Positions 9,302 through 24,738 of a DNA stretch of 64,000 nucleotides are shown here, in pieces. Position numbers and translations under genes: made by a program. Below the pieces are notes generated by a model. That model ran no database searches. It was not told the origin of the DNA and saw only the letters and a list, made by a program, of their open reading frames with translations. Every line of letters starts with the position of its first letter. Positions within the stretch are counted from its first letter, which is position 1. The DNA comes from Bacteroidota bacterium (GTDB lineage Bacteria; Bacteroidota; Bacteroidia; Flavobacteriales_F; PHOS-HE28), in NCBI GenBank assembly GCA_018266685.1, contig JAFDZY010000255.1:1488-65487 (forward strand). The letters are read 5' to 3'.

Positions 9302-11122
9302 ATGAAGAACTTCCTTCGCATCATGCGCTTCGGCCGGCCCTATGCCCGGTTCGCGGTGCTGAACGGCGTGTTCAACCTGTTGGCCACCATTTTCCATTTG
9401 GCCAGCATGTTGTTGTTCATCCCGTTCCTGCGGCTGTTGCTGGGGCAAACCAAGGCCGAGCACGTGCGGCCGGTGCTGGCCTGGGACAAGGCCTCCATGG
9501 AGCAGGGCTTCAACTGGGCATTGACCCGCTTGATCGAACTGCACGGGCAACTGGGCGCCTTGGCCATCATCTGCCTCACCGTGGTGCTGCTCTTCCTGCT
9601 GAAAAATGTGTTCCGCTACCTGGCCGTCCGGGCCATCTGCACGTTCCGCAACCGCATCATCCGCGATGTGCGCTCGCGCATCTACGACAAGATGCTGGAG
9701 CTGCCCCTGCGCTACCACAACGACGAGCGCAAGGGCCACCTGCTTTCATTGATCACCAACGACATGCAGGTGCTGGAGTACTCCGTGATGTACTCCATTG
9801 AAATGGTGTTCCGCGAACCGATCGCGGTGATCATGTTCCTGGGCACCATGGTGACGCTTTCGCCGCAATTGACGCTGTATTCCCTGCTGCTGCTTCCCAT
9901 CAGCGGATTGTTGATCGGCCGCATATCGCGAAGCCTGAAAAGGCGAAGCACGCGCGTGCAGGAAAAGAGTGCCGACCTGCTCAGTCGCGTGGAGGAAACG
10001 CTCACCGGCATGCGCGTGGTGAAGGCGTTCAACGGCGAGGAGAACATGCGCCGCCGGTTCGAACGGGAGAACGAATTGCTCATGCGCGCCAGCATCAGCA
10101 TGCTGAACCGCCAGGATGTAGCCTCTCCACTGAGCGAAACACTGGGCACCGCAGTGATGGCGGCCATTGCCTTCCTGGGCGGCACCCTTGTGCTGGGGCC
10201 TGAATCCAGCCTCAGCGGGGACAGTTTCCTGGGCTTCATCATCATCTTTTCCCAGCTGCTCACGCCCATCAAGGGTTTCTCGCAAGGCTATTCAGGCATT
10301 GTGCGCGGTTCCTCCAGCGCGCAGCGGGTGTTCGAGCTGTTGGCGGTGCCCAACACCGTGACGGAAAAGCCCGGCGCCAAGCCCGTCAAGAACTTCACCG
10401 ATCGCGTTGAGTTCAAGGACGTGTCATTCGCATATGGCGACAAGCCGGTGCTTCAAGACATCCACCTCACCGTGCCCAAAGGCAAAAGCGTGGCCCTGGT
10501 GGGCACCAGCGGTGGCGGAAAGACCACGCTCGCGGGGCTGTTGCCGCGTTTCTTTGATGTTACGGCGGGTGCCGTCAACATTGATGGCTCGGACATCCGC
10601 GACCTGAAGGTCCACGACCTGCGCGCATTGATGGGGATCGTGACGCAGGACAGCCTGCTGTTCAACGACACGGTGGCCGCCAACATCGTATTTGGGCGCA
10701 CGGGCATCAGTGAAGCGGATGTGAGGCACGCTGCGGAAGTGGCCAATGCGCACGAATTCATCGAACGGCTCCCCAACGGTTACCAAACCAACATCGGCGA
10801 TGCCGGCAACAAGCTCAGCGGCGGGCAGAAGCAACGCATCGCCATTGCGCGTGCCGTGCTGGGCAATCCATCCATCCTGATCTTGGACGAAGCCACTTCG
10901 GCCTTGGACACGGAAAGTGAGAAACTGGTACAGGACGCACTTTTCAAGCTGATGAAGGACCGCACCTCCTTGGTGATCGCTCACCGGCTGAGCACCATAC
11001 AACATTGCAACGAGATCGTGGTGCTGGACCACGGCCGCATCATAGAGCGCGGCACACACGCCGAACTCTTTGCCGCCCATGGGCAGTACCGCAAGTTGTG
11101 CGACCTGCAGGCCTTTGCGTGA
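9302..11122 (+). CDS. ABC transporter ATP-binding/permease protein (MsbA-like type I exporter)
   Basis: Six-TM exporter domain, Walker A GTSGGGKTT, signature LSGGQKQR and Walker B ILILDEATSALD. ATG at 9302 (MKNFLRIMRF) is preferred. Confidence 0.9.
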   Translation: MKNFLRIMRFGRPYARFAVLNGVFNLLATIFHLASMLLFIPFLRLLLGQTKAEHVRPVLAWDKASMEQGFNWALTRLIELHGQLGALAIICLTVVLLFLLKNVFRYLAVRAICTFRNRIIRDVRSRIYDKMLELPLRYHNDERKGHLLSLITNDMQVLEYSVMYSIEMVFREPIAVIMFLGTMVTLSPQLTLYSLLLLPISGLLIGRISRSLKRRSTRVQEKSADLLSRVEETLTGMRVVKAFNGEENMRRRFERENELLMRASISMLNRQDVASPLSETLGTAVMAAIAFLGGTLVLGPESSLSGDSFLGFIIIFSQLLTPIKGFSQGYSGIVRGSSSAQRVFELLAVPNTVTEKPGAKPVKNFTDRVEFKDVSFAYGDKPVLQDIHLTVPKGKSVALVGTSGGGKTTLAGLLPRFFDVTAGAVNIDGSDIRDLKVHDLRALMGIVTQDSLLFNDTVAANIVFGRTGISEADVRHAAEVANAHEFIERLPNGYQTNIGDAGNKLSGGQKQRIAIARAVLGNPSILILDEATSALDTESEKLVQDALFKLMKDRTSLVIAHRLSTIQHCNEIVVLDHGRIIERGTHAELFAAHGQYRKLCDLQAFA

Positions 11123-14622: not shown

Positions 14623-14915
14623 CTACCTGTCTTTACCATTGGCTCTCGGCCAATCGGTATCGTAGACTGTCACGATCTCCATCTCCATACGGCTCACTTT
14701 GTACACTACGGACACATTCGGGTGGATTACTGCGCGGCGACTCCGGGATAGGTGGCCGAGACTTGGTATCCATGGGGGAACTGCTTGACCAAGGTCTCGA
14801 ATTCCTGCAGCAAGCTCAAGAAAGGCTCCACCCACGTCCACTCCTGGATCTTCGAAGAAACGTCTACCCGAAGCTTGGCTTCCCCAGACCAGTAAACGAC
14901 GCGATCACCGGCCAT
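14623..14915 (-). pseudogene. RelE/ParE-family toxin, frameshifted copy
   Basis: Homologous to the intact copy at 16061..16366 but split over two frames (ORFs 14727..15086 and 14623..14841). Alignment of ...ggcgactccgggata with ...ggcgacacccgggata shows a 1-bp loss near 14745-14750. Confidence 0.7.
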
Positions 14916-15129
14916 GCCCCGCCCAAAACTCCTTGCTGCCGATCCGATTTCCTTTGCGCAGGTCTTCGAGGCCCTTTTCCATGGCCCGGCGCTCATCCGA
15001 GGATATATCCCCCGCCCAATCACCATGCTGGGTGGCTTTCTTGATCCCCAGTAACGAATCCAATAGACCATGGTCCTCCATGCCATTGATCCATTCGATC
15101 AACTCCTTCCGGGTGGCTTGGGCGTTCAT
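14905..15129 (-). CDS. addiction-module antitoxin-like protein (partner of the frameshifted toxin)
   Basis: 74 aa, clearly similar by eye to the 16356..16580 product, and overlaps the toxin start. Confidence 0.65.
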   Translation of the reverse strand: MNAQATRKELIEWINGMEDHGLLDSLLGIKKATQHGDWAGDISSDERRAMEKGLEDLRKGNRIGSKEFWAGHGR

Positions 15130-15417: not shown

Positions 15418-15786
15418 CTACAACAACCTCACCTCGATCACTTCCCTCAACCGCTTGAAGTCATTGTCGGAGATGATCAGCGGCATGTTCAACGTGGCGG
15501 CCGTGGCTGCGACCAACGAATCCGCTAACTTCAACCGGTAGTTGCTGCGCAACCACACACAACGCTCCTTGATCGACGGGCTAATGTCCCAAATGGAGCA
15601 AAAGGCAAGCACCTGGCTGATCACTTCCTGTGCGTTGCGCTTCGTCGCACACATGGTCAAAAGCTCGATCTCCGTTGCGATGGAAATGTGGACTTCACGG
15701 CCCAGCAACCATTCCCTGGCTTCAGGATTTCCTTCCAGAAAGTGGATCAACACGCTCGTATCGGCCACGATGGCGCGATCATTCAT
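15418..15786 (-). CDS. PIN-domain toxin (VapC-like)
   Basis: MNDRAIVADTSVLIHFL... carries the PIN acidic residues and is 122 aa. Confidence 0.85.
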   Translation of the reverse strand: MNDRAIVADTSVLIHFLEGNPEAREWLLGREVHISIATEIELLTMCATKRNAQEVISQVLAFCSIWDISPSIKERCVWLRSNYRLKLADSLVAATAATLNMPLIISDNDFKRLREVIEVRLL

Positions 15787-15982
15787 CGCGCAGCTCCTTC
15801 AACAGGGGGAAGGCCCACTTGCCCATTGCCGGAAGGGCACCCCACAGTTCCTCGGCATGGAACACTTTGCGCATGGGAGCATCAGTCTTTCGCTTCCGTA
15901 CCGTGGCCACGCGCTTTGTAGCACGGCTGCGACGTGCCACCGGCTTCACCGCAGGGATGGCTTTGTTCTTTTTAGTGGCCAT
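15779..15982 (-). CDS. putative cognate antitoxin of the PIN toxin
   Basis: 67-aa basic protein overlapping the vapC-like start by 8 bp. The family was not recognised. Confidence 0.55.
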   Translation of the reverse strand: MATKKNKAIPAVKPVARRSRATKRVATVRKRKTDAPMRKVFHAEELWGALPAMGKWAFPLLKELRDE

Positions 15983-16060: not shown

Positions 16061-16366
16061 TCATTCTTCGCCAGCCTGGCTCCTTGCGGACCGGTTATCA
16101 TATACGGTCACCACTTCAATCTCCGTTAGGCTGACCTTGTATACCACGGACACATTCGGATGGATCACTGCTCGGCGACACCCGGGATAAATGACCGAAG
16201 CTTGGTATCCATTGGGGAACTGCTTGATCAAGGTCTCGAATTCTTGGAGCAAGTCCAGGAATGCCGATACCTCGCGTTCGCTCCATGACTTCCGAAGAAA
16301 TTCCTTGATCTGGTCAACCCGAAGCTTGGCCTCCCCTGACCAGTAAACGTTACGATCACCGGCCAT
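16061..16366 (-). CDS. RelE/ParE-family toxin (intact copy)
   Basis: MAGDRNVYWSGEAKLRVD...RRAVIHPNVSVVYKVSLTEIEVVTVYDNRS shows the ParE/RelE-like C-terminal pattern. It overlaps the antitoxin stop. Confidence 0.75.
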   Translation of the reverse strand: MAGDRNVYWSGEAKLRVDQIKEFLRKSWSEREVSAFLDLLQEFETLIKQFPNGYQASVIYPGCRRAVIHPNVSVVYKVSLTEIEVVTVYDNRSARSQAGEE

Positions 16367-16580
16367 GGCCTGCCCAAAAGTCCTTGCTGCCGATCCGGTT
16401 TCCTTTGCGCAGGTCTTCAAGGCCCCTTTCTATGGACCGGCGCTCATCCGCGGATATATCCTCCGCCCAATCACCATGCTGGGTAGCTTTCTTAATCCCC
16501 AATAACGAATCCAATAGACCAAGGTCCTCAAGGCCTTTGATCCAATCGATCAACTCGTTCCGGGTGGTTTGGGCATTCAT
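16356..16580 (-). CDS. addiction-module antitoxin-like protein
   Basis: 74 aa, upstream of and overlapping the toxin; paralogue of 14905..15129. Confidence 0.65.
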   Translation of the reverse strand: MNAQTTRNELIDWIKGLEDLGLLDSLLGIKKATQHGDWAEDISADERRSIERGLEDLRKGNRIGSKDFWAGHGR

Positions 16581-16935: not shown

Positions 16936-17319
16936 TCAACGCTCCTTCTGCGCGGCAGCCAACTGCGTCTGGAGAAAGAGCTTGTCCTTGCGCAGCTCCG
17001 CTACCACTTCCTCCAATTCCTTGATGCGTGCCTCGTACAGCTCATGCGCCTTATCCGACATCCCGTTGTAGGTGCTGTTGTTGTTCACACCCACCAGACC
17101 GTTGCAATGCTGGAAGAACATCTTCTCATCGAAGCTAAGGACTTGGGGAACGGTCATCTCGAAGAGCTTGGCCACCTGTTCCAACAAGGCCAAGGTCCAT
17201 TCCGACTCCCCGCTGATATAACGGCTCAGTTGGCGTTCGCTCATGTCCAACTGCGTGGCCATCCAGTCCTTGCTGAAGCCCTTCAAAAGCATGATCTTCT
17301 CGATGGAGCCTATTTTCAT
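16936..17319 (-). CDS. XRE-family helix-turn-helix transcriptional regulator with C-terminal coiled coil
   Basis: HTH segment KDWMATQLDMSERQLSRYISGES. Start taken at MKIGSIEKIM. It is divergent from the RiPP precursor gene. Confidence 0.8.
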   Translation of the reverse strand: MKIGSIEKIMLLKGFSKDWMATQLDMSERQLSRYISGESEWTLALLEQVAKLFEMTVPQVLSFDEKMFFQHCNGLVGVNNNSTYNGMSDKAHELYEARIKELEEVVAELRKDKLFLQTQLAAAQKER

Positions 17320-17541
17320 GGTCGCCTGATTTTTGACACAATCCGTCCGAAGTTCGCCAGCAATATACTTGCAAGATCCAAACAAACGTTGAAGGTTTGC
17401 ATTGCGCTAAGGCCAACACCCGCCCCACAGGCCCGCTCGTTGTGAAACGGCCGAACAACTGAAGGGGCAGTTGCCGGACCGAGGCGTGAGCGGATGCCGA
17501 AAAGCTCGGAGAGAGTAGGCGGGAAGTTCAACTAAATTGAC

Positions 17542-17781
17542 ATGAAGAAGAGTAAGAGCACTAAAAAGGCAGGCTTGTTCGATAAGCTACAGGATAACAG
17601 GTTCACCAACACGGGATTGGTGCATGGAGGAGCACCGGGGAGCCAAGCAACGAATGATCCCGATTATACCAATCTCGGCGGAGGCACCGATTGCGGGGAT
17701 CAAGACGATGGATCGCTGGTCACGGTTGATACGGTACCGACGAGTGCTGAGTTCGACACACCCACCAGGGGAGGACGTTAG
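17542..17781 (+). CDS. putative RiPP (graspetide-type) precursor peptide with double-glycine leader
   Basis: 79 aa. The leader MKKSKSTKKAGLFDKLQDNRFTNTGLVHGG holds all 6 Lys. The 49-aa core has 8 Thr, 3 Ser, 8 Asp, 1 Glu, 1 Cys and no Lys. It sits directly upstream of the ATP-grasp, SPASM and C39-ABC genes. Confidence 0.7.
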   Translation: MKKSKSTKKAGLFDKLQDNRFTNTGLVHGGAPGSQATNDPDYTNLGGGTDCGDQDDGSLVTVDTVPTSAEFDTPTRGGR

Positions 17782-17865
17782 ATCAGGACCCGTATAACCG
17801 TATTGGTTCAACAGCACCTCACGCATAGGATTGGTCATTGCGGACCATGAACGCCCTAAACAATG

Positions 17866-17901
17866 TGGCCCGGCACCGCCATTAATGGAAGTGCCGGGCC
17901 C
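17866..17901 (+). terminator. GC-rich hairpin downstream of the precursor gene
   Basis: tggcccggcac (17866-17876) pairs with gtgccgggcca (17891-17901) across a 14-nt loop. Confidence 0.55.
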
Positions 17902-17924
17902 ACATCAATGCCATTCCGGAACAC

Positions 17925-18818
17925 ATGTCATACCATCAATTTACTCATTTAAGATTCAATAAGAGCACATCATACAACTTGGGCTTCCGATGCATTCTAT
18001 TTTTCTCACTATCAACTGTAATACAAACCGTTCAGGCCCAATACCCGGTGTTCCACCTACTAGATAGTGCGCTGACACTCATGGAAAGTCCGCGTTATAT
18101 GGAAGGAGCGCAGATATACCGCACACTTCCGGCTGCACGGATTGATCCGCGGCGGAAATTGAGTGCGTGCCTGAGCGCTCTGAATAACCAAGACTCCAGC
18201 TTGTTCAAGACGGTATTGTTGGACCTCGCGGCGAACCATGGCTTTTTTGAGAACGGTCCAATGAAGATAAATGCCTTAAGAGAAGCATTGGATAGCGGTG
18301 GCTATGCGATCTGGTTGGCATCGAAACGGGATAGTTGCCGCATCCACTTCTTACGAACGCATATAGACAGATCGGAAGTAATGCGTCGCATGCGTCGCAT
18401 ATATGAATTGGACCAAGCTCGCGCTCTTGTGGAACGGTATAGTAGTGTTGATTCCGTCACATATTCTATAGTCACGGGAATAGATCAAGAGAACTTATAT
18501 GAGATTATAGCATTGGCTCATGAATATGGATTGCCGAACGATTTTGATGACCTTTGGAATACATCAGGACTCGTTGAACTTGTACTTTTTCATTGTGGCA
18601 AGAACCCGCATGGATTTCAGCAACGTTGGGATGCCATAATGCCCTATTTGAATAAGGCATACGCAGCAGGAAAGATTGGTAGCGAATATTTGCGCATTTA
18701 CGATACAACCTTGTATATGAATGCCGGTGTGCAGTATTACGGCACACTGGAAAATGCTCCTGTCCGGGATCCCAAGGGGTTGCCCCAGCGGAGAGCGGAA
18801 CGCGGTCTGGCCCCATGA
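17925..18818 (+). CDS. hypothetical protein with N-terminal hydrophobic/signal-like segment
   Basis: 297-aa low-GC ORF whose stop overlaps the ATP-grasp start (ATGA at 18815-18818). The C-terminal half (IDQENLYEIIALAHEYGLP...LRIYDTTLYMNAGVQYYGT) reminds me of the DUF6624 pattern; unverified. Confidence 0.6.
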   Translation: MSYHQFTHLRFNKSTSYNLGFRCILFFSLSTVIQTVQAQYPVFHLLDSALTLMESPRYMEGAQIYRTLPAARIDPRRKLSACLSALNNQDSSLFKTVLLDLAANHGFFENGPMKINALREALDSGGYAIWLASKRDSCRIHFLRTHIDRSEVMRRMRRIYELDQARALVERYSSVDSVTYSIVTGIDQENLYEIIALAHEYGLPNDFDDLWNTSGLVELVLFHCGKNPHGFQQRWDAIMPYLNKAYAAGKIGSEYLRIYDTTLYMNAGVQYYGTLENAPVRDPKGLPQRRAERGLAP

Positions 18819-19813
18819 TTGTGATTGTTTCAAACAATGATGATCAATCGACAAATGAAGTCATTGATTGGCTGTATCATTACGGCGTGGAATTTGTTCG
18901 GATCAATGAAGGCGACTTAGTCGCTTCATACTCCGTATCGCTTTCTATTGAGGGCTTGGTTTATGACTTCAAAATTCCATCGTTGGACATACATTTCAAA
19001 CCGCCACTAACGATTTGGTATAGACGAGGCGGGTTCTCGACCGGACGCTGGACCCCTCCACTATTGGAACCGATGAGCAGGAAGGAACAGCAATCCCTTC
19101 AAGATCAGGTTATGTGGGAATGGAAGACTGCCGAACATGCACTCACATCCACAGTATTCAACGGTATGCTCAACAGCCCGTTGGACAACGGAATCAACAA
19201 GTTCCTCGTGCTTAAAAGCGCGCATGCCGTTGGCTTGGACATACCGGAGACATTAATCACCACCAATCGTCATGAGGTGGAAGCGTTCAAACGCAAGCAC
19301 GGCCGGATTATAACAAAGAACCTTGCGCCAGGTGTGTTTGTCGAGGTCAAGAATGCGGCCTACATCGGGTTCACTGAAGAATGCTCGTGGCGGTTCATTC
19401 GTTCTCTTCCAAGAATCTTTCCGCCATCACTGTTTCAACGGATGGTGCCGAAGTGGATCGAGTTGCGCGTATTCTACTTGGATGGCACGTGCTACGCTTC
19501 GGCAATATTCAGCCAGCAAGACCGTACCACAAAGGTCGACTTCCGAAACTATAATCATGCACGTCCCAACCGAACACCACCATTCAAAATGGATGAAAAC
19601 GTACAAAGTCGTTTGCGAAATTTAATGGCCCTCCTGGGCTTACGCTCTGGATCGATAGATATGATTGTAACGCCTGCAGGGCAGTATCTTTTTCTGGAAG
19701 TGAATCCCGTCGGGCAGTTTAAGCAGGTGTCTCAACCCTGCAATTTCCGCTTGGAGCAAAAGATAGCACAACAACTGATAGAACAAAATGGATCGAATAG
19801 AACGCATCAATAA
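18815..19813 (+). CDS. ATP-grasp peptide maturase (microviridin MvdD/RimK-like; grasp-with-spasm type)
   Basis: N-terminus MIVIVSNNDDQSTNEVIDWL, NK..VLKSAHAVGLDIPETLIT, ELRVFYLDGTCYASAIFSQ...VDFRNY and YLFLEVNPVGQF match the peptide-modifying ATP-grasp pattern as I recall it. Confidence 0.85.
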   Translation: MIVIVSNNDDQSTNEVIDWLYHYGVEFVRINEGDLVASYSVSLSIEGLVYDFKIPSLDIHFKPPLTIWYRRGGFSTGRWTPPLLEPMSRKEQQSLQDQVMWEWKTAEHALTSTVFNGMLNSPLDNGINKFLVLKSAHAVGLDIPETLITTNRHEVEAFKRKHGRIITKNLAPGVFVEVKNAAYIGFTEECSWRFIRSLPRIFPPSLFQRMVPKWIELRVFYLDGTCYASAIFSQQDRTTKVDFRNYNHARPNRTPPFKMDENVQSRLRNLMALLGLRSGSIDMIVTPAGQYLFLEVNPVGQFKQVSQPCNFRLEQKIAQQLIEQNGSNRTHQ

Positions 19814-19973
19814 GCTTATAAAGAGCTGTGATTCCTTGCCTCCGTACTTTAGGATGAGCCACTTTACATCACGTGTACCGTTGGACCCGTCCACGTCCCA
19901 AGCATCGCTACGGCACAGGTCTACAAATTACAGATACCGCCCTGAAGTAAAACCTCCAGTTGTGCGCTGAACG

Positions 19974-21065
19974 ATGCAGATCTTTAAATTGCACGAGCAA
20001 GTGCGATTGCATAAAGGCCAATTGCGTGGTGTGGCCTATGATTTGCAACGCCAAGACTATTGGTTCCTGCCTTTGGGTGTGATTAATGCAATCGTGGAAT
20101 TGGAGGGCAAGCCAATAGAGAAGCTGCACGAACGACTCAGGCGCCCGAGCATGCCTCAGGGTGAATGGGTTGATTGCCTGATAAGTAGGGAAGTCATTTT
20201 TCCTTTGCCGCACGGCTTCCTCAAAAATTTCCCTGCACTTGATCTCACCTATGCCAAGCCTGGAAAGATTAGCACGGCTGTGGTGCCTTTGCCATATATC
20301 GACCACTCCATCGTTAAAGTCTTGGAGCGCGCAGGGTGCCATCATTTGGCGGTGGAAATAACTGCTGAAGAAACAAGCGGCTTAAATGCATTAGGGCCCG
20401 TTCTGGAAGGCACATCAATCAACTCTGTTTCTCTTCATTTCTCCTATTCGGCAGAATTGGATGCCAAGTTGGTGTGTTTGCTTAAAGAGCCCATCCACGC
20501 CAAGGTAAAGCAGGTGTACATACACTCTGCGCCTGATACTACCGTGAAGAAGAATCAAGGTATCGCATTGCACTACAATACGGCCATAACGAAGGAAGGC
20601 TACTTCCGTCCGAGTCTCGTATTGCATCAGGATACTTATTTGGAAGCCCTGACTTGGAATGTATATTTCAATCGAAAGATCTTCTTGACCCGTAATGGAA
20701 GTGTCACGATTGGTGATGGCGAAGAAATGCCGCTGGGCCATGGTAAACAGCGCATGCATGACCTTCAGGTGTTCCTTGATGGATTAGGCACACCTGCACT
20801 CTGGTCTTCGCGTAAGGACGAAATATCCGTTTGTGACGATTGCGAGCTGCGATATATGTGCATTGATCCTCGTGTGCCGGTCCAGCGTAAAGACGGTTCA
20901 TATTACCACAACTCGGAATGCAGCTACAATCCATTCATTGCGAAGTGGAGTGACGAAGCAGGCTTTGCGCCTCTTGCGGAATGCGGTGTGGTGAGCAATG
21001 CCGAAGGCTTTACCATTGATCACGAGCGCATTGCCGCCATCAATGCGGAACTCTGGGGGGAATGA
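19974..21065 (+). CDS. SPASM-domain peptide maturase lacking a radical-SAM cluster motif
   Basis: C-terminal Cys cluster SVCDDCELRYMCID...NSECSYNPF (C-x2-C-x5-C...C). No CxxxCxxC anywhere in the 363 aa. Its stop overlaps the start of the C39 ABC exporter. Confidence 0.75.
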   Translation: MQIFKLHEQVRLHKGQLRGVAYDLQRQDYWFLPLGVINAIVELEGKPIEKLHERLRRPSMPQGEWVDCLISREVIFPLPHGFLKNFPALDLTYAKPGKISTAVVPLPYIDHSIVKVLERAGCHHLAVEITAEETSGLNALGPVLEGTSINSVSLHFSYSAELDAKLVCLLKEPIHAKVKQVYIHSAPDTTVKKNQGIALHYNTAITKEGYFRPSLVLHQDTYLEALTWNVYFNRKIFLTRNGSVTIGDGEEMPLGHGKQRMHDLQVFLDGLGTPALWSSRKDEISVCDDCELRYMCIDPRVPVQRKDGSYYHNSECSYNPFIAKWSDEAGFAPLAECGVVSNAEGFTIDHERIAAINAELWGE

Positions 21066-23320
21066 GCTTCCCCTTCTACCAGCAGCCCGACCACATGGAC
21101 TGCGGGCCCACTTGCCTGCGCATAGTGGCCAAGTACCATGGAAGGTCGGTAAGCCTGCCCAAACTGCGGGCCTTTAGCGAGACCACCCGCACGGGGAGCA
21201 ACCTGCAGAACATTGCGCAAGCCGCCGAGGCCATCGGCTTTCGTACATTAGGGGTAAAGGTCTCCTTGCAAAAAATCTTGGATGAGCAGCCGTTGCCCTG
21301 CATTTTGCATTGGAACAGCAACCACTTTGTGGTGTTGTACAAAGCCAAGCCCAGCAAAGGCAAACTGAAGTTGCACGTGGCCGATCCCGGCCACGGCCTG
21401 CTCACCTACACCGAGCGGGAATTTCTGGACAGGTGGATCGGTGCGAACAGCCACCGGGATACCCAGGAAGGCATTGCGCTGCTGCTGGAACCCAGCCCTC
21501 GGCTGATAGAGCAGGAAGACGACGACAGCGAGCAGCAGAACAAGCAAGGTTTCCGCTTCCTGTTCCGCTACCTGCTACCACACAAGAAGTTCATTGTTCA
21601 ATTGGCCATCGGCCTGCTGGCGGGCAGCTTGATCCAATTGCTCTTCCCCTTCCTTACCCAAAGCGTGGTGGACGTGGGCATCCAGCACCGGGATGTGTCC
21701 TTCATCTGGTTGGTGCTGATCGCGCAGCTCTTCCTCTACATGGGCAGCACGGCCATCGAGCTGATCCGGGGCTGGATCCTGCTGCACCTCAGCGCCCGCA
21801 TCAACATCGCGCTGGTCTCGGATTTCTTCATCAAGCTGATGAAGCTGCCCATCGGCTTTTTCGACGTGAAGCAGACGGGCGACATTTTGCAGCGCATCAA
21901 CGACCACAAGCGCATCGAGCAGTTGCTCACCACCTCCTCGCTCAGTGTGCTGTTCTCGCTGTTCAACCTGGTGCTCTTCGGGGCGGTGCTGGCCTGGTAC
22001 AGCGGGATCATCTTCGCGGTGTTCCTCGCGGGCAGCTTGGTATACGTGGGCTGGGTATGGCTCTTCATGCAGCGCCGCCGCGACCTGGATTTTAAGCGCT
22101 TCGACCAGATGAGCGCGGAGCAGAGCAAGGTGATCGAGCTGATCGCGGGCATGCAGGAGATCAAGCTGCACAACGCCGAGCGGCAGAAGCGCTGGGGCTG
22201 GGAGGACCTGCAAGCCCGCCTGTTCAAGGTGCAAATGAAGAGCCTGGCCTTGGAGCAGACACAAAGCACGGGCAGCGGCTTTGTGAACCAGGTGAAGAAC
22301 CTCTTCATCACCATCCTCAGCGCCAAATTGGTGATCGACGGGGCCATCACCTTGGGCATGATGATGAGCATCAGCTACATCATCGGGCAGCTCAACAGCC
22401 CCATCCAGCAGTTGATCGGCTTTATGTACACCACCCAGGATGCCAAGATCGCGCTGGAACGCCTGAGCGAGGTGCACGGCCGGGCGGATGAGGAGAGCCC
22501 AGCGTCCAACGCAGGGTCCGCTTCGCGTGACCCTGCGGGGACTTTAATACACGACATACCGCCGGACAGCGACCTCGTGCTGAAGGGCGTGGACTTTCGC
22601 TACCCCGGCAGCCCCGAGCCGGTGCTGAAGCAACTGGATCTGAAGATACCCGCGCGGAAGGTCACGGCGATTGTGGGGAGCAGCGGCAGCGGCAAGACCA
22701 CGCTGATGAAACTGCTGCTGAAGTTCTACCCGCCGGACAGCGGCCAACTGCTGTACGGCAGCACGCCGCTGGAGCAGATCGGCCACCATGCCTGGCGCGC
22801 CCATTGCGGCACGGTGATGCAGGAGGGCTTCATCTTCAACGACACGGTGGCCAACAACATCGCTATCGGGCAGGAGGATGTGGACCGCGAGCGCCTCATG
22901 CATGCCGCGCGGGTGGCGAACATTTTGGACTTCATTGAGGAACTGCCCTTGGGCTTCAACACCAAGATCGGCGGCGAGGGTTTGGGCATGAGCGCGGGGC
23001 AGAAGCAGCGGATCCTGATCGCCCGCGCGGTGTACAAGCAACCGCAGCTGCTCTTATTTGATGAGGCCACCAGCGCACTGGACGCCACCAACGAGCGCAC
23101 GATCATGGAGAACTTGGATGCGTTCCTGCAAGGCCGCACCGCCGTGGTGATCGCGCACCGCTTGAGCACGGTGAAGAACGCGGACCAGATCGTGGTACTG
23201 GATGAAGGCCGCATCGTGGAAGCGGGCAAGCATGCGGAGTTGATCGCCCAGGGCGGGATCTACTTCCGGTTGGTGCGGGACCAGTTGCAATTGGAGCAGG
23301 TGGGGGCGCCAGTCGGTTAA
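21062..23320 (+). CDS. peptidase-C39-domain ABC transporter (double-glycine bacteriocin/RiPP exporter, PCAT)
   Basis: N-terminal C39 motif QQPDHMDCGPTCL, six-TM exporter domain, Walker A GSSGSGKTT, signature MSAGQKQR and Walker B LLLFDEATSALD. Confidence 0.93.
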   Translation: MSFPFYQQPDHMDCGPTCLRIVAKYHGRSVSLPKLRAFSETTRTGSNLQNIAQAAEAIGFRTLGVKVSLQKILDEQPLPCILHWNSNHFVVLYKAKPSKGKLKLHVADPGHGLLTYTEREFLDRWIGANSHRDTQEGIALLLEPSPRLIEQEDDDSEQQNKQGFRFLFRYLLPHKKFIVQLAIGLLAGSLIQLLFPFLTQSVVDVGIQHRDVSFIWLVLIAQLFLYMGSTAIELIRGWILLHLSARINIALVSDFFIKLMKLPIGFFDVKQTGDILQRINDHKRIEQLLTTSSLSVLFSLFNLVLFGAVLAWYSGIIFAVFLAGSLVYVGWVWLFMQRRRDLDFKRFDQMSAEQSKVIELIAGMQEIKLHNAERQKRWGWEDLQARLFKVQMKSLALEQTQSTGSGFVNQVKNLFITILSAKLVIDGAITLGMMMSISYIIGQLNSPIQQLIGFMYTTQDAKIALERLSEVHGRADEESPASNAGSASRDPAGTLIHDIPPDSDLVLKGVDFRYPGSPEPVLKQLDLKIPARKVTAIVGSSGSGKTTLMKLLLKFYPPDSGQLLYGSTPLEQIGHHAWRAHCGTVMQEGFIFNDTVANNIAIGQEDVDRERLMHAARVANILDFIEELPLGFNTKIGGEGLGMSAGQKQRILIARAVYKQPQLLLFDEATSALDATNERTIMENLDAFLQGRTAVVIAHRLSTVKNADQIVVLDEGRIVEAGKHAELIAQGGIYFRLVRDQLQLEQVGAPVG

Positions 23321-23463
23321 CCACGGATAGACACGGATGCACACGGAAAACTCTATATGGCCGGATGCCTGAGCATGAAATCCATAGCTCAGCCTCAGGG
23401 TCCGCTTCACACCTTCGCGAAGACGCTTCGGCGCACAAAGCGCGAGACCCTGCGGGAGTTCTG

Positions 23464-24738
23464 ATGGTCATGGCCGAACTGCGCAGCGAGCGCGTGCAGG
23501 AGATCATGGGGCATGTGCCCACGTGGACGATCCGCTACGGCATCACCGTGATCTTCAGCGCCATCGTGCTGCTGTTGCTGTTGGCATGGATGATCCGCTA
23601 CCCGGACGTGGTGACGGCACCCGGCACGTTGACCAGCACGGACCCGCCGCGCAATGCCGTTGCCCGCAGCGAGGGGAAGCTGGTGCGCATCGCGGTGGCC
23701 GAAGGCGATACCGTGGCGGCGGGCGATGCCTTGGCGGTGATCGAAAGCACGGCCAACCCTGCGGCCATGGACAGCATGGCCGCACTGCTGCCGGCGTTGC
23801 AACAGGCGTTGGTTTCCGGTGCGGAACAATTCCCCGTGCTTGGGAATTTGGACGTTGGCGAAGGGCGCACCGAGCTGGCCACCTTGCGCACGGCGCTCGC
23901 GGAAATGCAAGCGTGGCGCACGGACGCGTACCGCGCCCAACGCAATGCGGGCCTGCGAGAAAAGATCGCCATGTACCGCAAGCTGATCGGCTCCACGCAA
24001 AACCAGTTGAGTTGGACGTACAAGAAGCAAGCGAACTACGTGGCGGAGGCAAAGGTGGACAGCCTGTTGGCCAACAAGGGCGTGATCGCCACCACGGAGC
24101 TGCGCCAAAAGCAGAACGCCTTCCTGGACCAGCAAGTGGGCGTGGCCAACATGGAGCATGGCTTGCAACAATACCGGTTGGCCCTGCTGGAAACGGAAAC
24201 GCAATTGAACGATGCACTCCATGCGGATGAGAACCGGCAGCGCGAATTGGAAGAAGCGTTTCGGGGCAGCATGGAACGCCTGCGCGCATTTCTGGAAAGC
24301 TGGCGGTTGAGCCACACGTTGTCCGCACCCGTTGCCGGGCGGGTCTATTTCGCAGGTCGGCTCACCTTGAAACAATCCGTGAAAAGCGGGGACGTGCTCT
24401 TCAGCGTGGACCCGTTGGTGGCCAGCTACGTGTTCGAGGCCGCCGTGCCTTCCGCCGGTTCAGGCAAAGTACACTTGGGCCAGCAGGCGTACATCCAGCT
24501 TGAGGGCTTCCCCTCGAATGAGTTCGGCAAATTGATCGGCACGGTGCGTTCCATGTCGTCCATGCCGCATGAGGGTAGCTACCGCGTGGTGGTGGAATTG
24601 CCGGAAGGGCTGCGCACATCGTTCCACCGCACGTTGAAGTACCATCCGGAAATGAAGGGATCGGTGGAAGTGGTGGCCCGGGAACGCTCGGTGCTGGGAA
24701 GGATCTTTGACAAGGTGCGGGGGGCGGTGGAGCGGTGA
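23464..24738 (+). CDS. HlyD-family secretion (membrane-fusion) protein
   Basis: N-terminal TM, biotinyl-lipoyl-like GDTVAAGDALAVIES, long coiled coil and a C-terminal beta-barrel. The start is moved past a palindromic repeat that occupies the track N-terminus. Confidence 0.85.
   Translation: MVMAELRSERVQEIMGHVPTWTIRYGITVIFSAIVLLLLLAWMIRYPDVVTAPGTLTSTDPPRNAVARSEGKLVRIAVAEGDTVAAGDALAVIESTANPAAMDSMAALLPALQQALVSGAEQFPVLGNLDVGEGRTELATLRTALAEMQAWRTDAYRAQRNAGLREKIAMYRKLIGSTQNQLSWTYKKQANYVAEAKVDSLLANKGVIATTELRQKQNAFLDQQVGVANMEHGLQQYRLALLETETQLNDALHADENRQRELEEAFRGSMERLRAFLESWRLSHTLSAPVAGRVYFAGRLTLKQSVKSGDVLFSVDPLVASYVFEAAVPSAGSGKVHLGQQAYIQLEGFPSNEFGKLIGTVRSMSSMPHEGSYRVVVELPEGLRTSFHRTLKYHPEMKGSVEVVARERSVLGRIFDKVRGAVER

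What the first reader, a model, noticed from the sequence alone, without database searches (positions are those of the whole stretch)
17542..24738. RiPP-like cluster: GG-leader Thr/Asp-rich precursor, ATP-grasp ligase, radical-SAM-less SPASM protein, C39 ABC exporter and HlyD
Seen: six co-oriented genes. They encode a 79-aa peptide, a 297-aa unknown protein, an ATP-grasp enzyme with microviridin-ligase-like motifs, a protein whose only recognisable feature is a C-terminal C-x2-C-x5-C...C SPASM-type Cys cluster, a C39-peptidase ABC exporter and an HlyD protein. Stop/start overlaps link unknown to ATP-grasp and SPASM to exporter.

Established: peptide-modifying ATP-grasp ligases make side-chain ester or amide macrocycles (graspetides / omega-ester peptides). 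C39 PCATs cleave after GG during export. From memory, TIGRFAMs define a 'grasp-with-spasm' pairing by genome context only.

Inference: this is a graspetide pathway with a second, chemically undefined maturation step from the SPASM partner. To my knowledge no product of this subtype has been structurally characterised, so it is the best candidate for an undescribed system here.
Basis: partly seen in the sequence, partly recalled or inferred. Interest (0 to 1): 0.85.

Follow-up and report, generated by a model that had tools for sequence, protein, structure and literature searches.

The report
Grasp-with-SPASM peptide gene cluster
This is a real Bacteroidota gene cluster of a catalogued but never chemically characterised type that makes and exports a side-chain-cyclised peptide, and its "SPASM" partner turns out to be a relic radical-SAM protein that cannot do radical chemistry.

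Summary
The six genes exist as described, and the cluster is real. It is a member of the "grasp-with-spasm" system (gwsG/gwsS; Makarova 2022 branch 5; RODEO group 14). That class is known from bioinformatics only, and I found no characterised product.

- **ATP-grasp:** it passes NCBIfam TIGR04192 (265 bits against a cutoff of 230).
- **SPASM partner:** it is a divergent TIGR04193 homologue (105 bits against 175).

- a 60-aa "LPL-family" gene at 19788-19970;
- a divergent XRE regulator;
- a near-invariant DUF805b-type element 20 nt upstream of the precursor.

New observations:
- None of 84 SPASM partners has the CxxxCxxC radical-SAM motif, while all keep four Cys.
- The SPASM-partner model resembles SuiB/CteB and has an N-terminal leader-binding (RRE) domain.
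- Its 43-aa C-terminal tail tracks the exporter in sequence, not its own body.
- The 297-aa protein is an exported all-alpha protein with no fold match in the PDB.
- The precursor-to-SPASM cassette has foreign codon usage (GC3 about 0.5 against about 0.8 in its neighbours).

Most likely mechanism: the ATP-grasp makes up to three Thr-Asp lactones. The LPL protein and the relic SPASM protein act as accessories. The C39 exporter then cleaves and exports the peptide.

Verdict: a new member of a known kind, of moderate interest.

The parts
16936..17385 (-). Divergently transcribed XRE-type HTH regulator with a C-terminal coiled coil. The true start is probably the internal Met at about 17319.
   Evidence: Pfam HTH_26 and HTH_3. 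Homologous divergent HTH genes lie upstream of the cluster in L001, L002, L004, L013, L015, L050, L059 and L082 (32-44% identity in all but L059, 23%). GC3 is host-like at 0.75.
17487..17521 (+). DUF805b-type conserved element (4-bp hairpin plus invariant loop and 3' tail), ending 20 nt before the precursor ATG. It is either a 5'-UTR cis-regulatory RNA or a promoter-like DNA site.
   Evidence: Rfam RF02914: 37.6 bits against a gathering score of 35.6, and the only Rfam hit in the 64 kb. The same element lies 18-24 nt upstream of the precursor ATG in 8 of 12 related loci. There are 17 occurrences in 1.1 Mb of fetched loci, 16 of them at most about 300 nt upstream of a precursor or cassette start. 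Of 14 metagenome contigs with an exact match, 11 show a GG-leader ORF starting 20-22 nt after it and one more is an L002-type locus.
17542..17781 (+). Precursor peptide of 79 aa. The leader is residues 1-30, ending in GG (17542-17631). The core is residues 31-79.
   Evidence: An alignment of 11 syntenic precursors shows invariant G30, T43, D50, G52, D53 and D63. L12, F13, G29, T37, C51, T67 and D72 are at least 90% conserved. The core motif is TGDTDxT..GGxDCGD...D..PTxxxxD. There is no Pfam or NCBIfam hit.
17864..17904 (+). GC-rich hairpin of about 14 bp between the precursor and the next gene, with no U-tract. It is a candidate attenuator or mRNA-stabilising stem.
   Evidence: Fold of 17775-17930: -49 kcal/mol, z=-2.4. 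Non-homologous strong hairpins occupy the same position in L001 (both clusters), L087, L088 and L002.
17925..18818 (+). Exported all-alpha protein of 297 aa and unknown function. It fits the published description of 'cluster 23'. It is translationally coupled to the ATP-grasp gene.
   Evidence: Nearly all of 54 homologues have an N-terminal signal peptide directly followed by Gln (Q39, 96% conserved). The AF2 model has pLDDT 91.6 and is all helices. No PDB fold match has E<0.6. No Pfam hit in any of 54 members. Only 113 representative clusters among 1.84 billion proteins. D260, Q270 and G273 are invariant, and H223 and R289 are 87% conserved.
18815..19813 (+). GwsG, the ATP-grasp peptide maturase (macrolactone/lactam ligase).
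   Evidence: TIGR04192: 265 bits against a cutoff of 230, aligned end to end. PDB sequence hits are AMdnB 7m4s (1e-26), MdnC/MdnB 5ig9/5ig8 and CdnC 7mgv. NCBI names it 'grasp-with-spasm system ATP-grasp peptide maturase'.
19788..19970 (+). It carries LPPYFRM, a P-h-h-h-R/K-h motif like the microviridin leader PFFARFL.
   Evidence: The ORF is conserved in L001 (67% identity, same length) and L088 (42%). An ORF of at least 30 aa fills the grasp-SPASM gap in 82 of 84 pairs. An HMM built from 72 other gap ORFs hits only this ORF among 713 window ORFs (E=0.004, next best 4.2). Motif P-h-h-h-[RK] occurs in 35 of 74 (shuffle mean 3.2) and [FY][YH]Kx[IV] in 43 of 74 (shuffle mean 2.3). The exact sequence is absent from the protein collection.
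19974..21065 (+). GwsS-like protein of 363 aa. Its layout is an N-terminal RRE (about aa 1-90), a degenerate radical-SAM-type barrel (about 91-225), a conserved bridge plus 4-Cys site (226-327; C287, C290, C296, C316) and a 43-aa C-terminal tail (aa 321-363, nt 20934-21062).
   Evidence: TIGR04193: E=4e-30, 105.5 bits against a cutoff of 175. The AF2 model has pLDDT 91.3. Top Foldseek hits are SuiB 5v1q and CteB 5why/5wgg, and the N-terminus matches the lasso RRE TbiB1 5v1v (TMt 0.63). 0 of 84 homologues have CxxxCxxC and 84 of 84 have CxxCx5C. Conservation is concentrated in 226-327, with only 2 of 135 barrel positions at least 80% conserved.
21062..23320 (+). PCAT: a C39 peptidase-domain ABC exporter that cleaves after GG and exports the peptide.
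   Evidence: Pfam Peptidase_C39, ABC_membrane and ABC_tran. TIGR03796 and TIGR01193 family hits. The N-terminal QQPDHMDCGPTCL and NHFVV catalytic motifs are visible in the sequence. It is 76-80% identical across loci whose GwsS bodies are only 23-30% identical.
23365..24738 (+). HlyD-family periplasmic adaptor.
   Evidence: TIGR01843 E=6e-32, plus Pfam HlyD_3 and Biotin_lipoyl_2.

Best explanation
The locus is an operon of the Bacteroidota grasp-with-spasm (gws) graspetide type, carried by a metagenome-assembled Bacteroidota genome.

**Shown**
- A divergent XRE regulator and a conserved DUF805b-type element precede a 79-aa precursor with a 30-residue double-glycine leader.
- The precursor is followed by an exported all-alpha protein, the ATP-grasp GwsG, a 60-aa LPL-family protein, a GwsS-like protein, a C39-peptidase ABC exporter and an HlyD adaptor.

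**Inferred mechanism**
1. GwsG uses ATP to activate conserved Asp side chains (D50, D53, D63, D72). It esterifies them with conserved Thr (T37, T43, T67), giving up to three macrolactones. The core has no Lys, so no lactam is expected.
2. The precursor leader lacks the microviridin-type helix motif. That activating motif is instead supplied in trans by the LPL protein (LPPYFRM, compare PFFARFL).
3. GwsS is a relic of an RRE-radical SAM-SPASM maturase. It has lost the SAM cluster and the first auxiliary cluster. It keeps a leader-binding RRE and one four-Cys (probably [4Fe-4S]) site, so it holds or presents the precursor rather than doing radical chemistry.
4. The GwsS tail, which co-varies with the exporter, may dock it to the PCAT so that modification is coupled to export.
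5. The PCAT cleaves after G30 and exports the 49-residue core with HlyD.
6. The periplasmic 297-aa protein acts after export, in processing, immunity or chaperoning.

Confidence is layered: about 0.9 that this is a gws-type graspetide cluster, about 0.85 that GwsS does no radical-SAM chemistry, and about 0.5 for the accessory roles of LPL and GwsS. The overall figure of 0.6 reflects the whole model.
For: - **System identity:** TIGR04192 is above cutoff, and TIGR04193 matches at E=4e-30. The PDB neighbours are microviridin and chryseoviridin ligases.
- **Gene order:** it is conserved in L001-L005 and in most of 79 genome loci, with 84 grasp-SPASM pairs.
- **Precursor:** the family has three conserved Thr and four conserved Asp.
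- **LPL gene:**. Makarova et al. had already noted its resemblance to the Phhx(1-2)h leader motif and that branch 5 precursors lack this motif.
- **GwsS:** no CxxxCxxC in 84 of 84. The four invariant Cys match the spacing I recall for the SPASM AuxII ligands. The fold matches SuiB/CteB and lasso RRE proteins. The barrel is essentially unconserved.
- **Tail:** it is conserved at protein level, with many synonymous changes. Its divergence tracks PCAT divergence: rho 0.74 against the window and Mantel rho 0.44, p=0.0005, all-against-all. It does not track the body (rho about -0.1).
- **Coupling:** the SPASM stop overlaps the PCAT start.
- **297-aa protein:** signal peptide followed by a conserved Gln.
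- **Precedent:** accessory-protein-dependent graspetide ligases are known, for example rosaritide MirC (PMC13097080).
Against: - No product or activity is known for any gws system, so every chemical step is inferred.
- The 226-327 region of GwsS has many invariant polar residues beyond the Cys ligands (E291, D298, Y318; R293 and R300 at 95% or more; K281, N233 and E224 at 93-97%). That fits a catalytic site as well as a binding site.
- The core has a nearly invariant Cys (C51) with no role in the lactone model. It is Ser in L002.
- The tail-PCAT correlation could reflect unequal evolutionary rates with saturation of the body, or recombination inside the tail. Tail GC3 is intermediate.
- No complex modelling could be run.
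- The window GwsS scores below the NCBIfam cutoff.
Confidence: 0.6

Rival explanations
1. GwsS is a genuine second modifying enzyme. It would use its single four-Cys metal site and the invariant polar residues around it for non-radical or non-canonical Fe-S chemistry on the core. One possibility is action on the conserved DCGD cysteine or on an ester ring. The product would then carry a modification beyond lactones.
For: - GwsS strictly co-occurs with GwsG.
- The 226-327 region is very strongly conserved, including non-ligand polar residues E291, R293, D298, R300, Y318 and N319.
- The core Cys is nearly invariant in this precursor family, and Cys are common in branch 5 precursors.
- Some subfamilies keep a further Cys (C-x2-C-x5-C-x2-C) and reach the SPASM domain model TIGR04085.
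Against: - No CxxxCxxC, nor any other conserved Cys outside the four, in 84 of 84.
- All four Cys correspond to a fully ligated auxiliary cluster, which leaves no open iron for SAM (inference from my recollection of SPASM structures).
- The barrel has 2 of 135 positions conserved.
- The core Cys is replaced by Ser in L002.
Confidence: 0.3
2. The extreme conservation of the GwsS tail and its correlation with the PCAT do not reflect docking. Instead, biosynthetic cassettes (precursor to SPASM body) are repeatedly replaced by recombination. The conserved flanks would be the DUF805b-type element on the left and the tail/PCAT on the right, so the tail is simply inherited with the resident exporter.
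For: - GC3 is 0.47-0.57 for precursor through SPASM, against 0.86 (PCAT), 0.79 (HlyD), 0.75 (HTH) and about 0.8 for flanking host genes.
- The same break occurs in L004 (grasp 0.37, PCAT 0.85) and L009.
- PCAT is 76-80% identical across loci with 23-30% identical GwsS bodies and unrelated precursor families.
- The 30-nt left element is near-invariant upstream of at least six different precursor families.
Against: - The tail is more conserved than the PCAT in several pairs, despite many synonymous differences, which implies direct purifying selection on the peptide.
- The GC3 jump sits at the gene boundary, with the tail intermediate rather than PCAT-like.
- The two ideas are not exclusive.
Confidence: 0.4
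3. The cluster is a non-functional remnant, or the ATP-grasp acts on something other than the adjacent small peptide.
For: - GwsS is below the curated cutoff and is annotated as hypothetical.
- A related locus (L085) has a truncated ATP-grasp call of 268 aa.
- The source is a metagenome-assembled genome, with no expression data.
Against: - All seven ORFs are intact and tightly coupled.
- Every protein shows purifying selection against relatives.
- The precursor core conserves exactly the donor and acceptor residue types.
Confidence: 0.05

Closest known systems
Grasp-with-spasm system (NCBIfam TIGR04192/TIGR04193, gwsG/gwsS; Makarova et al. 2022 'branch 5'; RODEO graspetide group 14)
   Same: - A Bacteroidota host and a GG-leader precursor upstream.
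- An uncharacterised, often secreted protein before the ATP-grasp.
- A small LPL protein directly upstream of the SPASM gene.
- A PCAT and HlyD downstream.
   Different: - The window GwsS belongs to a divergent subfamily (C-[IV]-D-x-R instead of C-T-D-C-R after the third Cys). It scores 90-180 bits against 276-325 for canonical members.
- The DCGD-type precursor family matches no existing model.
- The literature calls the partner a radical SAM enzyme, whereas here the whole family lacks the radical-SAM Cys triad.
Microviridin pathway (MdnA precursor, MdnB/MdnC ATP-grasp ligases) and chryseoviridin CdnC
   Same: The ATP-grasp is homologous: AMdnB 1e-26, MdnC/MdnB 3e-25 and 2.5e-24, CdnC 3e-19. 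The core has Thr/Asp donor-acceptor logic.
   Different: - The precursor leader lacks the PFFARFL-type helix. A similar motif sits on a separate 60-aa protein.
- A relic SPASM protein is an obligatory neighbour.
- Export is by PCAT + HlyD.
RRE-radical SAM-SPASM peptide maturases SuiB (streptide) and CteB (sactipeptide)
   Same: They are the best structural matches to the GwsS model. The domain order is the same: RRE, barrel, then C-terminal Cys-rich domain.
   Different: - No CxxxCxxC.
- No first auxiliary-cluster cysteines.
- Only the C-x2-C-x5-C...C set remains.
- An extra 43-aa tail is present.
- Global TM-scores are low (0.2-0.3).
Partner-protein-dependent graspetide synthetases (rosaritide MirC; Carter et al. 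2026)
   Same: They are a precedent for a strictly co-occurring non-catalytic partner needed for ATP-grasp activity and stability.
   Different: The partner there is described as a PPIase-associated protein unrelated to SPASM or LPL proteins. No homology was tested.
DUF805b RNA motif (Rfam RF02914)
   Same: The element at 17487-17521 passes the family gathering score and keeps the hairpin. GAGC/GCUC replaces the consensus AGGC/GCCU, and L050 has AAGC/GCUU.
   Different: Here it precedes RiPP precursor genes rather than the DUF805 genes the family is named for. The sequence is almost invariant, so it could equally be a DNA-level promoter or operator. I could not read the original description.

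Membership tests
Grasp-with-spasm system | ATP-grasp reaches the TIGR04192 equivalog cutoff | tested here: met
   265 bits against 230, model positions 1-318 of 318.
Grasp-with-spasm system | SPASM partner reaches the TIGR04193 equivalog cutoff | tested here: not met
   105.5 bits against 175. It is still a full-length homologue (E=4e-30, model 2-334 of 342). Close relatives score 89-180 and canonical ones 239-326.
Grasp-with-spasm system | ATP-grasp and SPASM genes adjacent and co-oriented, with a small (LPL-type) ORF between them | tested here: met
   The gap ORF is at 19788-19970. The same arrangement holds in 82 of 84 pairs.
Grasp-with-spasm system | GG-leader precursor upstream and PCAT/HlyD export genes | tested here: met
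Grasp-with-spasm system | 'Cluster 23' uncharacterised secreted protein in the locus (Makarova 2022) | tested here: inconclusive
   The 297-aa family matches the published description: a signal peptide and conserved His and Arg. No cluster 23 sequence was available for direct comparison. Only 39 of 73 upstream ORFs were linked by jackhmmer.
Graspetide (RiPP class) | ATP-grasp-installed side-chain macrolactone or macrolactam in the mature peptide | not testable with these tools
   This needs mass spectrometry. Only the conserved Thr/Asp pattern is seen.
Radical SAM / SPASM enzyme | CxxxCxxC (or a variant) three-Cys motif for the SAM-binding [4Fe-4S] cluster | tested here: not met
   Absent from the window protein and from 84 of 84 homologues. 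There is no other conserved Cys.
Radical SAM / SPASM enzyme | Full SPASM domain (seven Cys, two auxiliary clusters; TIGR04085) | tested here: not met
   Only four conserved Cys. The window protein has no TIGR04085 hit. The distant relative P0036 reaches it at 30.5 bits against 27.
RRE (RiPP recognition element) containing protein | N-terminal PqqD-like winged-helix/three-strand fold | tested here: met
   The AF2 N-terminal domain (pLDDT 93-97) aligns to TbiB1 5v1v (prob 0.92, TMt 0.63) and lasso B1 6jx3 (prob 0.82). Leader binding itself was not tested.
Peptidase-containing ABC transporter (PCAT) | N-terminal C39 peptidase with catalytic Cys/His, plus six-helix TMD and NBD | tested here: met
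   Pfam PF03412, PF00664 and PF00005 are all above cutoff. The DCGPTCL and NHFVV motifs are in the sequence.
DUF805b RNA (RF02914) | Score at or above the Rfam gathering threshold, with the hairpin kept | tested here: met
   37.6 bits against 35.6, all 35 model positions, four standard pairs. Eight further loci score 36-46 bits.

The most novel reading that the evidence does not exclude
The gws locus may be a plug-and-play RiPP platform with three unusual features.
- **Split leader function:** the work of a RiPP leader is divided among three polypeptides. A short GG leader on the precursor serves the exporter. A stand-alone 60-aa protein carries the microviridin-like activating helix for the ATP-grasp. 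An RRE sits on a fossil radical-SAM/SPASM scaffold.
- **Coupled export:** the scaffold physically couples modification to export by docking to the PCAT through its co-evolving 43-aa tail.
- **Cassette swapping:** whole biosynthetic cassettes are exchanged between a fixed DUF805b-type 5' element and the fixed exporter. This would generate the observed diversity of unrelated cores.
Probability: 0.25. Interest if true: 0.7.

Novelty: new member of a known kind. Interest (0 to 1): 0.45.

Why it matters
Grasp-with-spasm clusters are one of the largest graspetide groups. Makarova et al. counted 190 loci, and I found 508 relatives among GTDB species representatives. No product or enzymology is known for any of them.

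If the SPASM partner is a relic that cannot do radical chemistry, the published expectation of thioether or C-C crosslinks for this group is probably wrong. The partner would instead be an example of a catalytic RiPP enzyme recycled as a leader-binding or export-coupling scaffold.

The window offers a compact, intact seven-gene test case. It has a precursor with a clear three-Thr/four-Asp pattern, a candidate trans-acting leader protein and a conserved 5' control element. All of these can be tested directly by heterologous expression.

Tried and rejected
**Searches that found nothing or could not be completed**
- Pfam and NCBIfam gave nothing for the precursor, the 297-aa protein or (in Pfam) the SPASM partner. 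Pfam on 54 homologues of the 297-aa protein gave only scattered chance hits.
- A profile search of PDB sequences with the GwsS alignment gave only a designed TIM barrel and a chance toxin match.
- Foldseek of the 297-aa model against the PDB gave no match better than E=0.65, so no function could be assigned.
- Ramesh et al. 2021 (PMC8688276) is not held. The supplements of Weinberg et al. 2017, which describe DUF805b, are not held. The original descriptions of group 14 and of DUF805b were therefore not read.
- The literature library lacks most subscription journals, so 'no characterised product' is a limited negative.

**Ideas rejected**
- The 160-nt grasp-SPASM gap is non-coding: rejected.
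- The tail conservation is a DNA- or RNA-level constraint: rejected, because 11-22 of 50 codons differ synonymously between loci.
- The tail was recently co-inherited with the PCAT as one block: not supported by GC3, which is intermediate.
- The tail-PCAT correlation is an artefact of comparing everything to the window: reduced but not removed by an all-against-all Mantel test (rho 0.44, p=0.0005). Saturation of the body and ATP-grasp identities remains a caveat.

Full report
**Observation**

Both 4-nt stop/start overlaps are real.

Family assignments:
- The ATP-grasp matches NCBIfam TIGR04192, the 'grasp-with-spasm system ATP-grasp peptide maturase', at 265 bits. The curated cutoff is 230. 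The microviridin MvdC/MvdD models come next. RimK, LysX and glutathione synthetase appear only as weak partial hits.
- The 363-aa protein matches TIGR04193, the 'grasp-with-spasm system SPASM domain peptide maturase', over its full length (E=4e-30). At 105.5 bits it is below the 175-bit cutoff.
- The exporter has Peptidase_C39, ABC_membrane and ABC_tran domains, and the last gene matches HlyD family models (HlyD_3, TIGR01843).

The source is a public metagenome-assembled 'Bacteroidetes bacterium' (locus tags JST38_11555 onwards). There the ATP-grasp already carries the grasp-with-spasm name, and the SPASM partner is 'hypothetical'.

*A seventh gene.* The apparent 160-nt gap between the ATP-grasp and SPASM genes holds a 60-aa ORF (19788-19970). 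It overlaps the ATP-grasp 3' end by 26 nt and stops 3 nt before the SPASM start.
- It is conserved in the nearest relatives: 67% identity and the same length in L001, 42% in L088.
- An ORF of at least 30 aa fills this gap in 82 of 84 ATP-grasp/SPASM pairs from 85 loci.
- A profile built from 72 such ORFs, excluding the window and its closest relative, picks out this ORF alone among 713 window ORFs (E=0.004, next best 4.2).
- The family has two motifs. P-h-h-h-[RK] occurs in 35 of 74 (shuffle mean 3.2). [FY][YH]Kx[IV] occurs in 43 of 74 (shuffle mean 2.3). The window protein has LPPYFRM.

This is the 'LPL family' that Makarova et al. describe as always lying directly upstream of the SPASM gene (PMC8939145).

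*A regulator.* A divergent XRE-type HTH regulator with a coiled-coil tail (16936-17385, minus strand) recurs upstream of related clusters.

*A conserved 5' element.* The only Rfam hit in the whole window is a DUF805b element (RF02914, 37.6 bits against 35.6) at 17487-17521, 20 nt before the precursor ATG.
- The same nearly invariant sequence (GCGGAWGCCGAAAAGCTCGGAGAGAGTAGG) lies 18-24 nt upstream of the precursor ATG in 8 of 12 related loci.
- It occurs 17 times in 1.1 Mb of fetched loci, and 16 of these lie at most about 300 nt upstream of a precursor or cassette start.
- Of 14 metagenome contigs with an exact match, 11 show a GG-leader ORF starting 20-22 nt after the element. One more is an L002-type locus whose precursor my script mis-called. 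These ORFs belong to at least six unrelated core families.

*A hairpin.* A 14-bp GC-rich hairpin (17864-17904) follows the precursor gene. Non-homologous hairpins occupy the same place in five related clusters. This is the usual design for over-producing a precursor transcript (inference).

**The precursor**

Eleven syntenic precursors align.
- The leader keeps L12-F13 and ends in G29-G30.
- The core keeps T37, T43, D50, C51, G52, D53, D63, T67 and D72. The motif is TGDTDxT..GGxDCGD...D..PTxxxxD.
- That gives three conserved hydroxyl donors and four conserved carboxylate acceptors, with no Lys in the window core. This is what an omega-ester graspetide core should look like.

**The SPASM partner**

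None of 84 homologues from 85 loci has a CxxxCxxC motif. All 84 keep C-x2-C-x5-C plus a fourth Cys. Across 80 distinct sequences the invariant residues are G15, C287, C290, E291, C296, D298, C316, Y318 and P320. Conservation by region:
- residues 226-327: 27 of 102 positions are at least 80% conserved;
- the central barrel, residues 91-225: 2 of 135 positions.

The AlphaFold model is confident (pLDDT 91.3). Its best PDB matches are SuiB and CteB, which are RRE-radical SAM-SPASM peptide maturases. The N-terminal about 85 residues match the lasso-peptide RRE proteins TbiB1 and B1.

The spacing of the four Cys corresponds to what I recall of the second auxiliary cluster of SPASM domains. The cysteines of the SAM cluster and of the first auxiliary cluster are gone. 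GwsS is thus a fossil radical-SAM maturase that keeps a leader-binding domain and one metal site. Radical chemistry is very unlikely. The published expectation that it makes thioether or C-C links therefore needs revisiting. Whether it still catalyses something with the conserved polar residues around the metal site cannot be decided here.

**The tail**

The last 43 residues (...KW.DE.G...LAECGVVSNAEGF.IDHERIAAINAELWGE) lie outside the TIGR04193 model.
- They are nearly identical among proteins that share only about 25-30% identity elsewhere.
- The conservation is at protein level, since 11-22 of 50 codons differ synonymously between loci.
- Against the window, tail identity follows PCAT identity (Spearman 0.74) and not the SPASM body (-0.06).
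- In an all-against-all Mantel test on 29 loci, tail-PCAT rho is 0.44 (p=0.0005), while tail-body and tail-ATP-grasp are about 0.

The SPASM stop overlaps the PCAT start. I read this as possible docking of GwsS on the exporter. The caveat is that the body and ATP-grasp identities are close to saturation.

**Mosaic structure**

| Gene(s) | GC3 |
|---|---|
| Precursor through SPASM | 0.47-0.57 |
| PCAT | 0.86 |
| HlyD | 0.79 |
| HTH regulator | 0.75 |
| Flanking PBP1a and HflX | about 0.8 |

- The same break is seen in L004 and L009.
- PCATs are 76-80% identical across loci whose ATP-grasps are 37-45% identical and whose GwsS bodies are 23-30% identical. Their precursors are unrelated.
- The biosynthetic cassette therefore looks like a replaceable insert between a fixed left end (regulator plus DUF805b-type element) and a fixed right end (exporter). 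The GC3 jump sits at the SPASM/PCAT boundary, with the tail intermediate.

**The 297-aa protein**

- It belongs to a rare family: 113 representative clusters among 1.84 billion proteins. It has no Pfam match.
- Almost every member starts with a signal peptide directly followed by Gln, which is 96% conserved. This is the Bacteroidota signal-peptidase 'Q-rule' as I recall it, so the protein is exported.
- The public annotation calls only a truncated 205-aa version.
- The model is confident and all-alpha, and has no PDB fold match.
- D260, Q270 and G273 are invariant. H223 and R289 are 87% conserved.
- It fits the description of Makarova's 'cluster 23' predicted extracellular auxiliary enzymes.
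- Because it is exported, it can act only after export.

**Mechanism proposed**

1. The XRE regulator and the 5' element control transcription.
2. GwsG forms up to three Thr-Asp lactones on the core.
3. The LPL protein supplies in trans the activating helix that microviridin-type leaders carry in cis. Compare LPPYFRM, LPFYLRF and LPLYLRF with PFFARFL. The PFFARFL motif is from my memory; the Phhx(1-2)h resemblance is noted in PMC8939145.
4. GwsS binds the leader through its RRE and hands the product to the PCAT.
5. The PCAT cleaves after G30 and exports the core with HlyD.
6. The periplasmic protein acts afterwards.

Shown here: the gene content, the homologies, the loss of the radical-SAM motif, the fold similarities, the conservation patterns and the co-variation. 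Inferred: every chemical and physical interaction.

**Comparison and novelty**

The locus matches the published picture of branch 5 / group 14 / gwsG-gwsS in all architectural respects. It is a member of a known, catalogued kind, not an undescribed system.

It is a divergent member. Its GwsS is below the curated cutoff, its precursor family has no model, and its LPL gene is unannotated.

I found no report of a characterised product. The library lacks most subscription journals, so this negative is limited.

The points that seem under-appreciated in the papers I could read are:
- the universal loss of the radical-SAM triad;
- the RRE;
- the exporter-linked tail;
- the DUF805b-type element tied to the precursors;
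- the cassette-like codon-usage break.

These raise the value of the locus as a test case but do not make it a new kind of system. Interest is 0.45.

Noticed in passing
window 17487-17521 (+); also L001 1042-1076 and 8606-8635, L002 5610-5644, L004 5453-5487, L009 1505-1539, L015 4498-4532, L050 4180-4209 and 4460-4494, L087 219-253, L088 587-621: An Rfam DUF805b (RF02914) element, almost invariant in sequence, sits 18-24 nt upstream of the ATG of GG-leader precursor genes from at least six unrelated core families. The family is named for DUF805 genes, not RiPP precursors. The element could be a 5'-UTR hairpin or a promoter-like site (GGAAGC, then 16 nt, then GAGTAG). L050 shows a compensatory stem change (AAGC/GCTT).
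   Followed up: partly
window 17542-21065 versus 21062-24738: There is a sharp codon-usage break. GC3 is 0.47-0.57 for precursor through SPASM, against 0.86 and 0.79 for PCAT and HlyD and about 0.8 for host genes. The same break occurs in L004 and L009. The PCATs are 76-80% identical across loci with very different cassettes, which suggests repeated cassette replacement next to a resident exporter.
   Followed up: partly
window 20934-21062 (GwsS residues 321-363): A 43-aa C-terminal tail lies outside the TIGR04193 model. It is nearly identical among proteins that are otherwise 25-30% identical, and it co-varies with the downstream PCAT rather than with its own protein body.
   Followed up: yes
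window 17864-17904: A 14-bp GC-rich hairpin without a U-tract lies between the precursor and the next gene. Non-homologous strong hairpins occupy the same position in L001 (both clusters), L002, L087 and L088.
   Followed up: partly
window 14727-15129 and 16061-16580 (-), 15418-15982 (-): Two copies of a small two-gene module (119 aa + 74 aa; one 119-aa copy weakly matches ParE toxin) flank a PIN-domain toxin with a 67-aa partner. They lie just upstream of the cluster's regulator. L004 also has a ParE pair at the same side of its gws cluster.
   Followed up: no
window 17925-18818 and 19788-19970: There are problems in the public annotation. The 297-aa exported protein is called as a 205-aa fragment lacking its signal peptide, and the 60-aa LPL gene is not called at all.
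   Followed up: yes
L001 1049-8054 and 8656-12081; also L006, L023, L031, L037, L039, L069, L071, L078: Many genomes carry two gws cassettes in tandem (ATP-grasp + SPASM twice). In L001 each has its own DUF805b-type element and precursor.
   Followed up: no
L085 9885-10691 and 11201-12043: In the closest relative of the 297-aa gene (71% identity), the ATP-grasp call is only 268 aa and the SPASM aa. This may be a decayed copy of the cluster.
   Followed up: no
proteins P0127 (5592 aa) and P0149 (1309 aa): The C-terminal IYD...GxQYYGT segment of the 297-aa family matches giant proteins in 6-8 repeated stretches. The motif may be related to YD/RHS-type repeats.
   Followed up: no
L059 (Phycisphaerales MAG) and L064 (Acidobacteriota MAG): Two of the 79 best GwsS loci are assigned to non-Bacteroidota bins. 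This is either horizontal transfer or binning error.
   Followed up: no
window 10010-11122 (+): An ORF upstream of the PBP1a gene matched the PCAT query in a phmmer screen, presumably through an ABC ATPase or permease domain. It is not part of the cluster.
   Followed up: no
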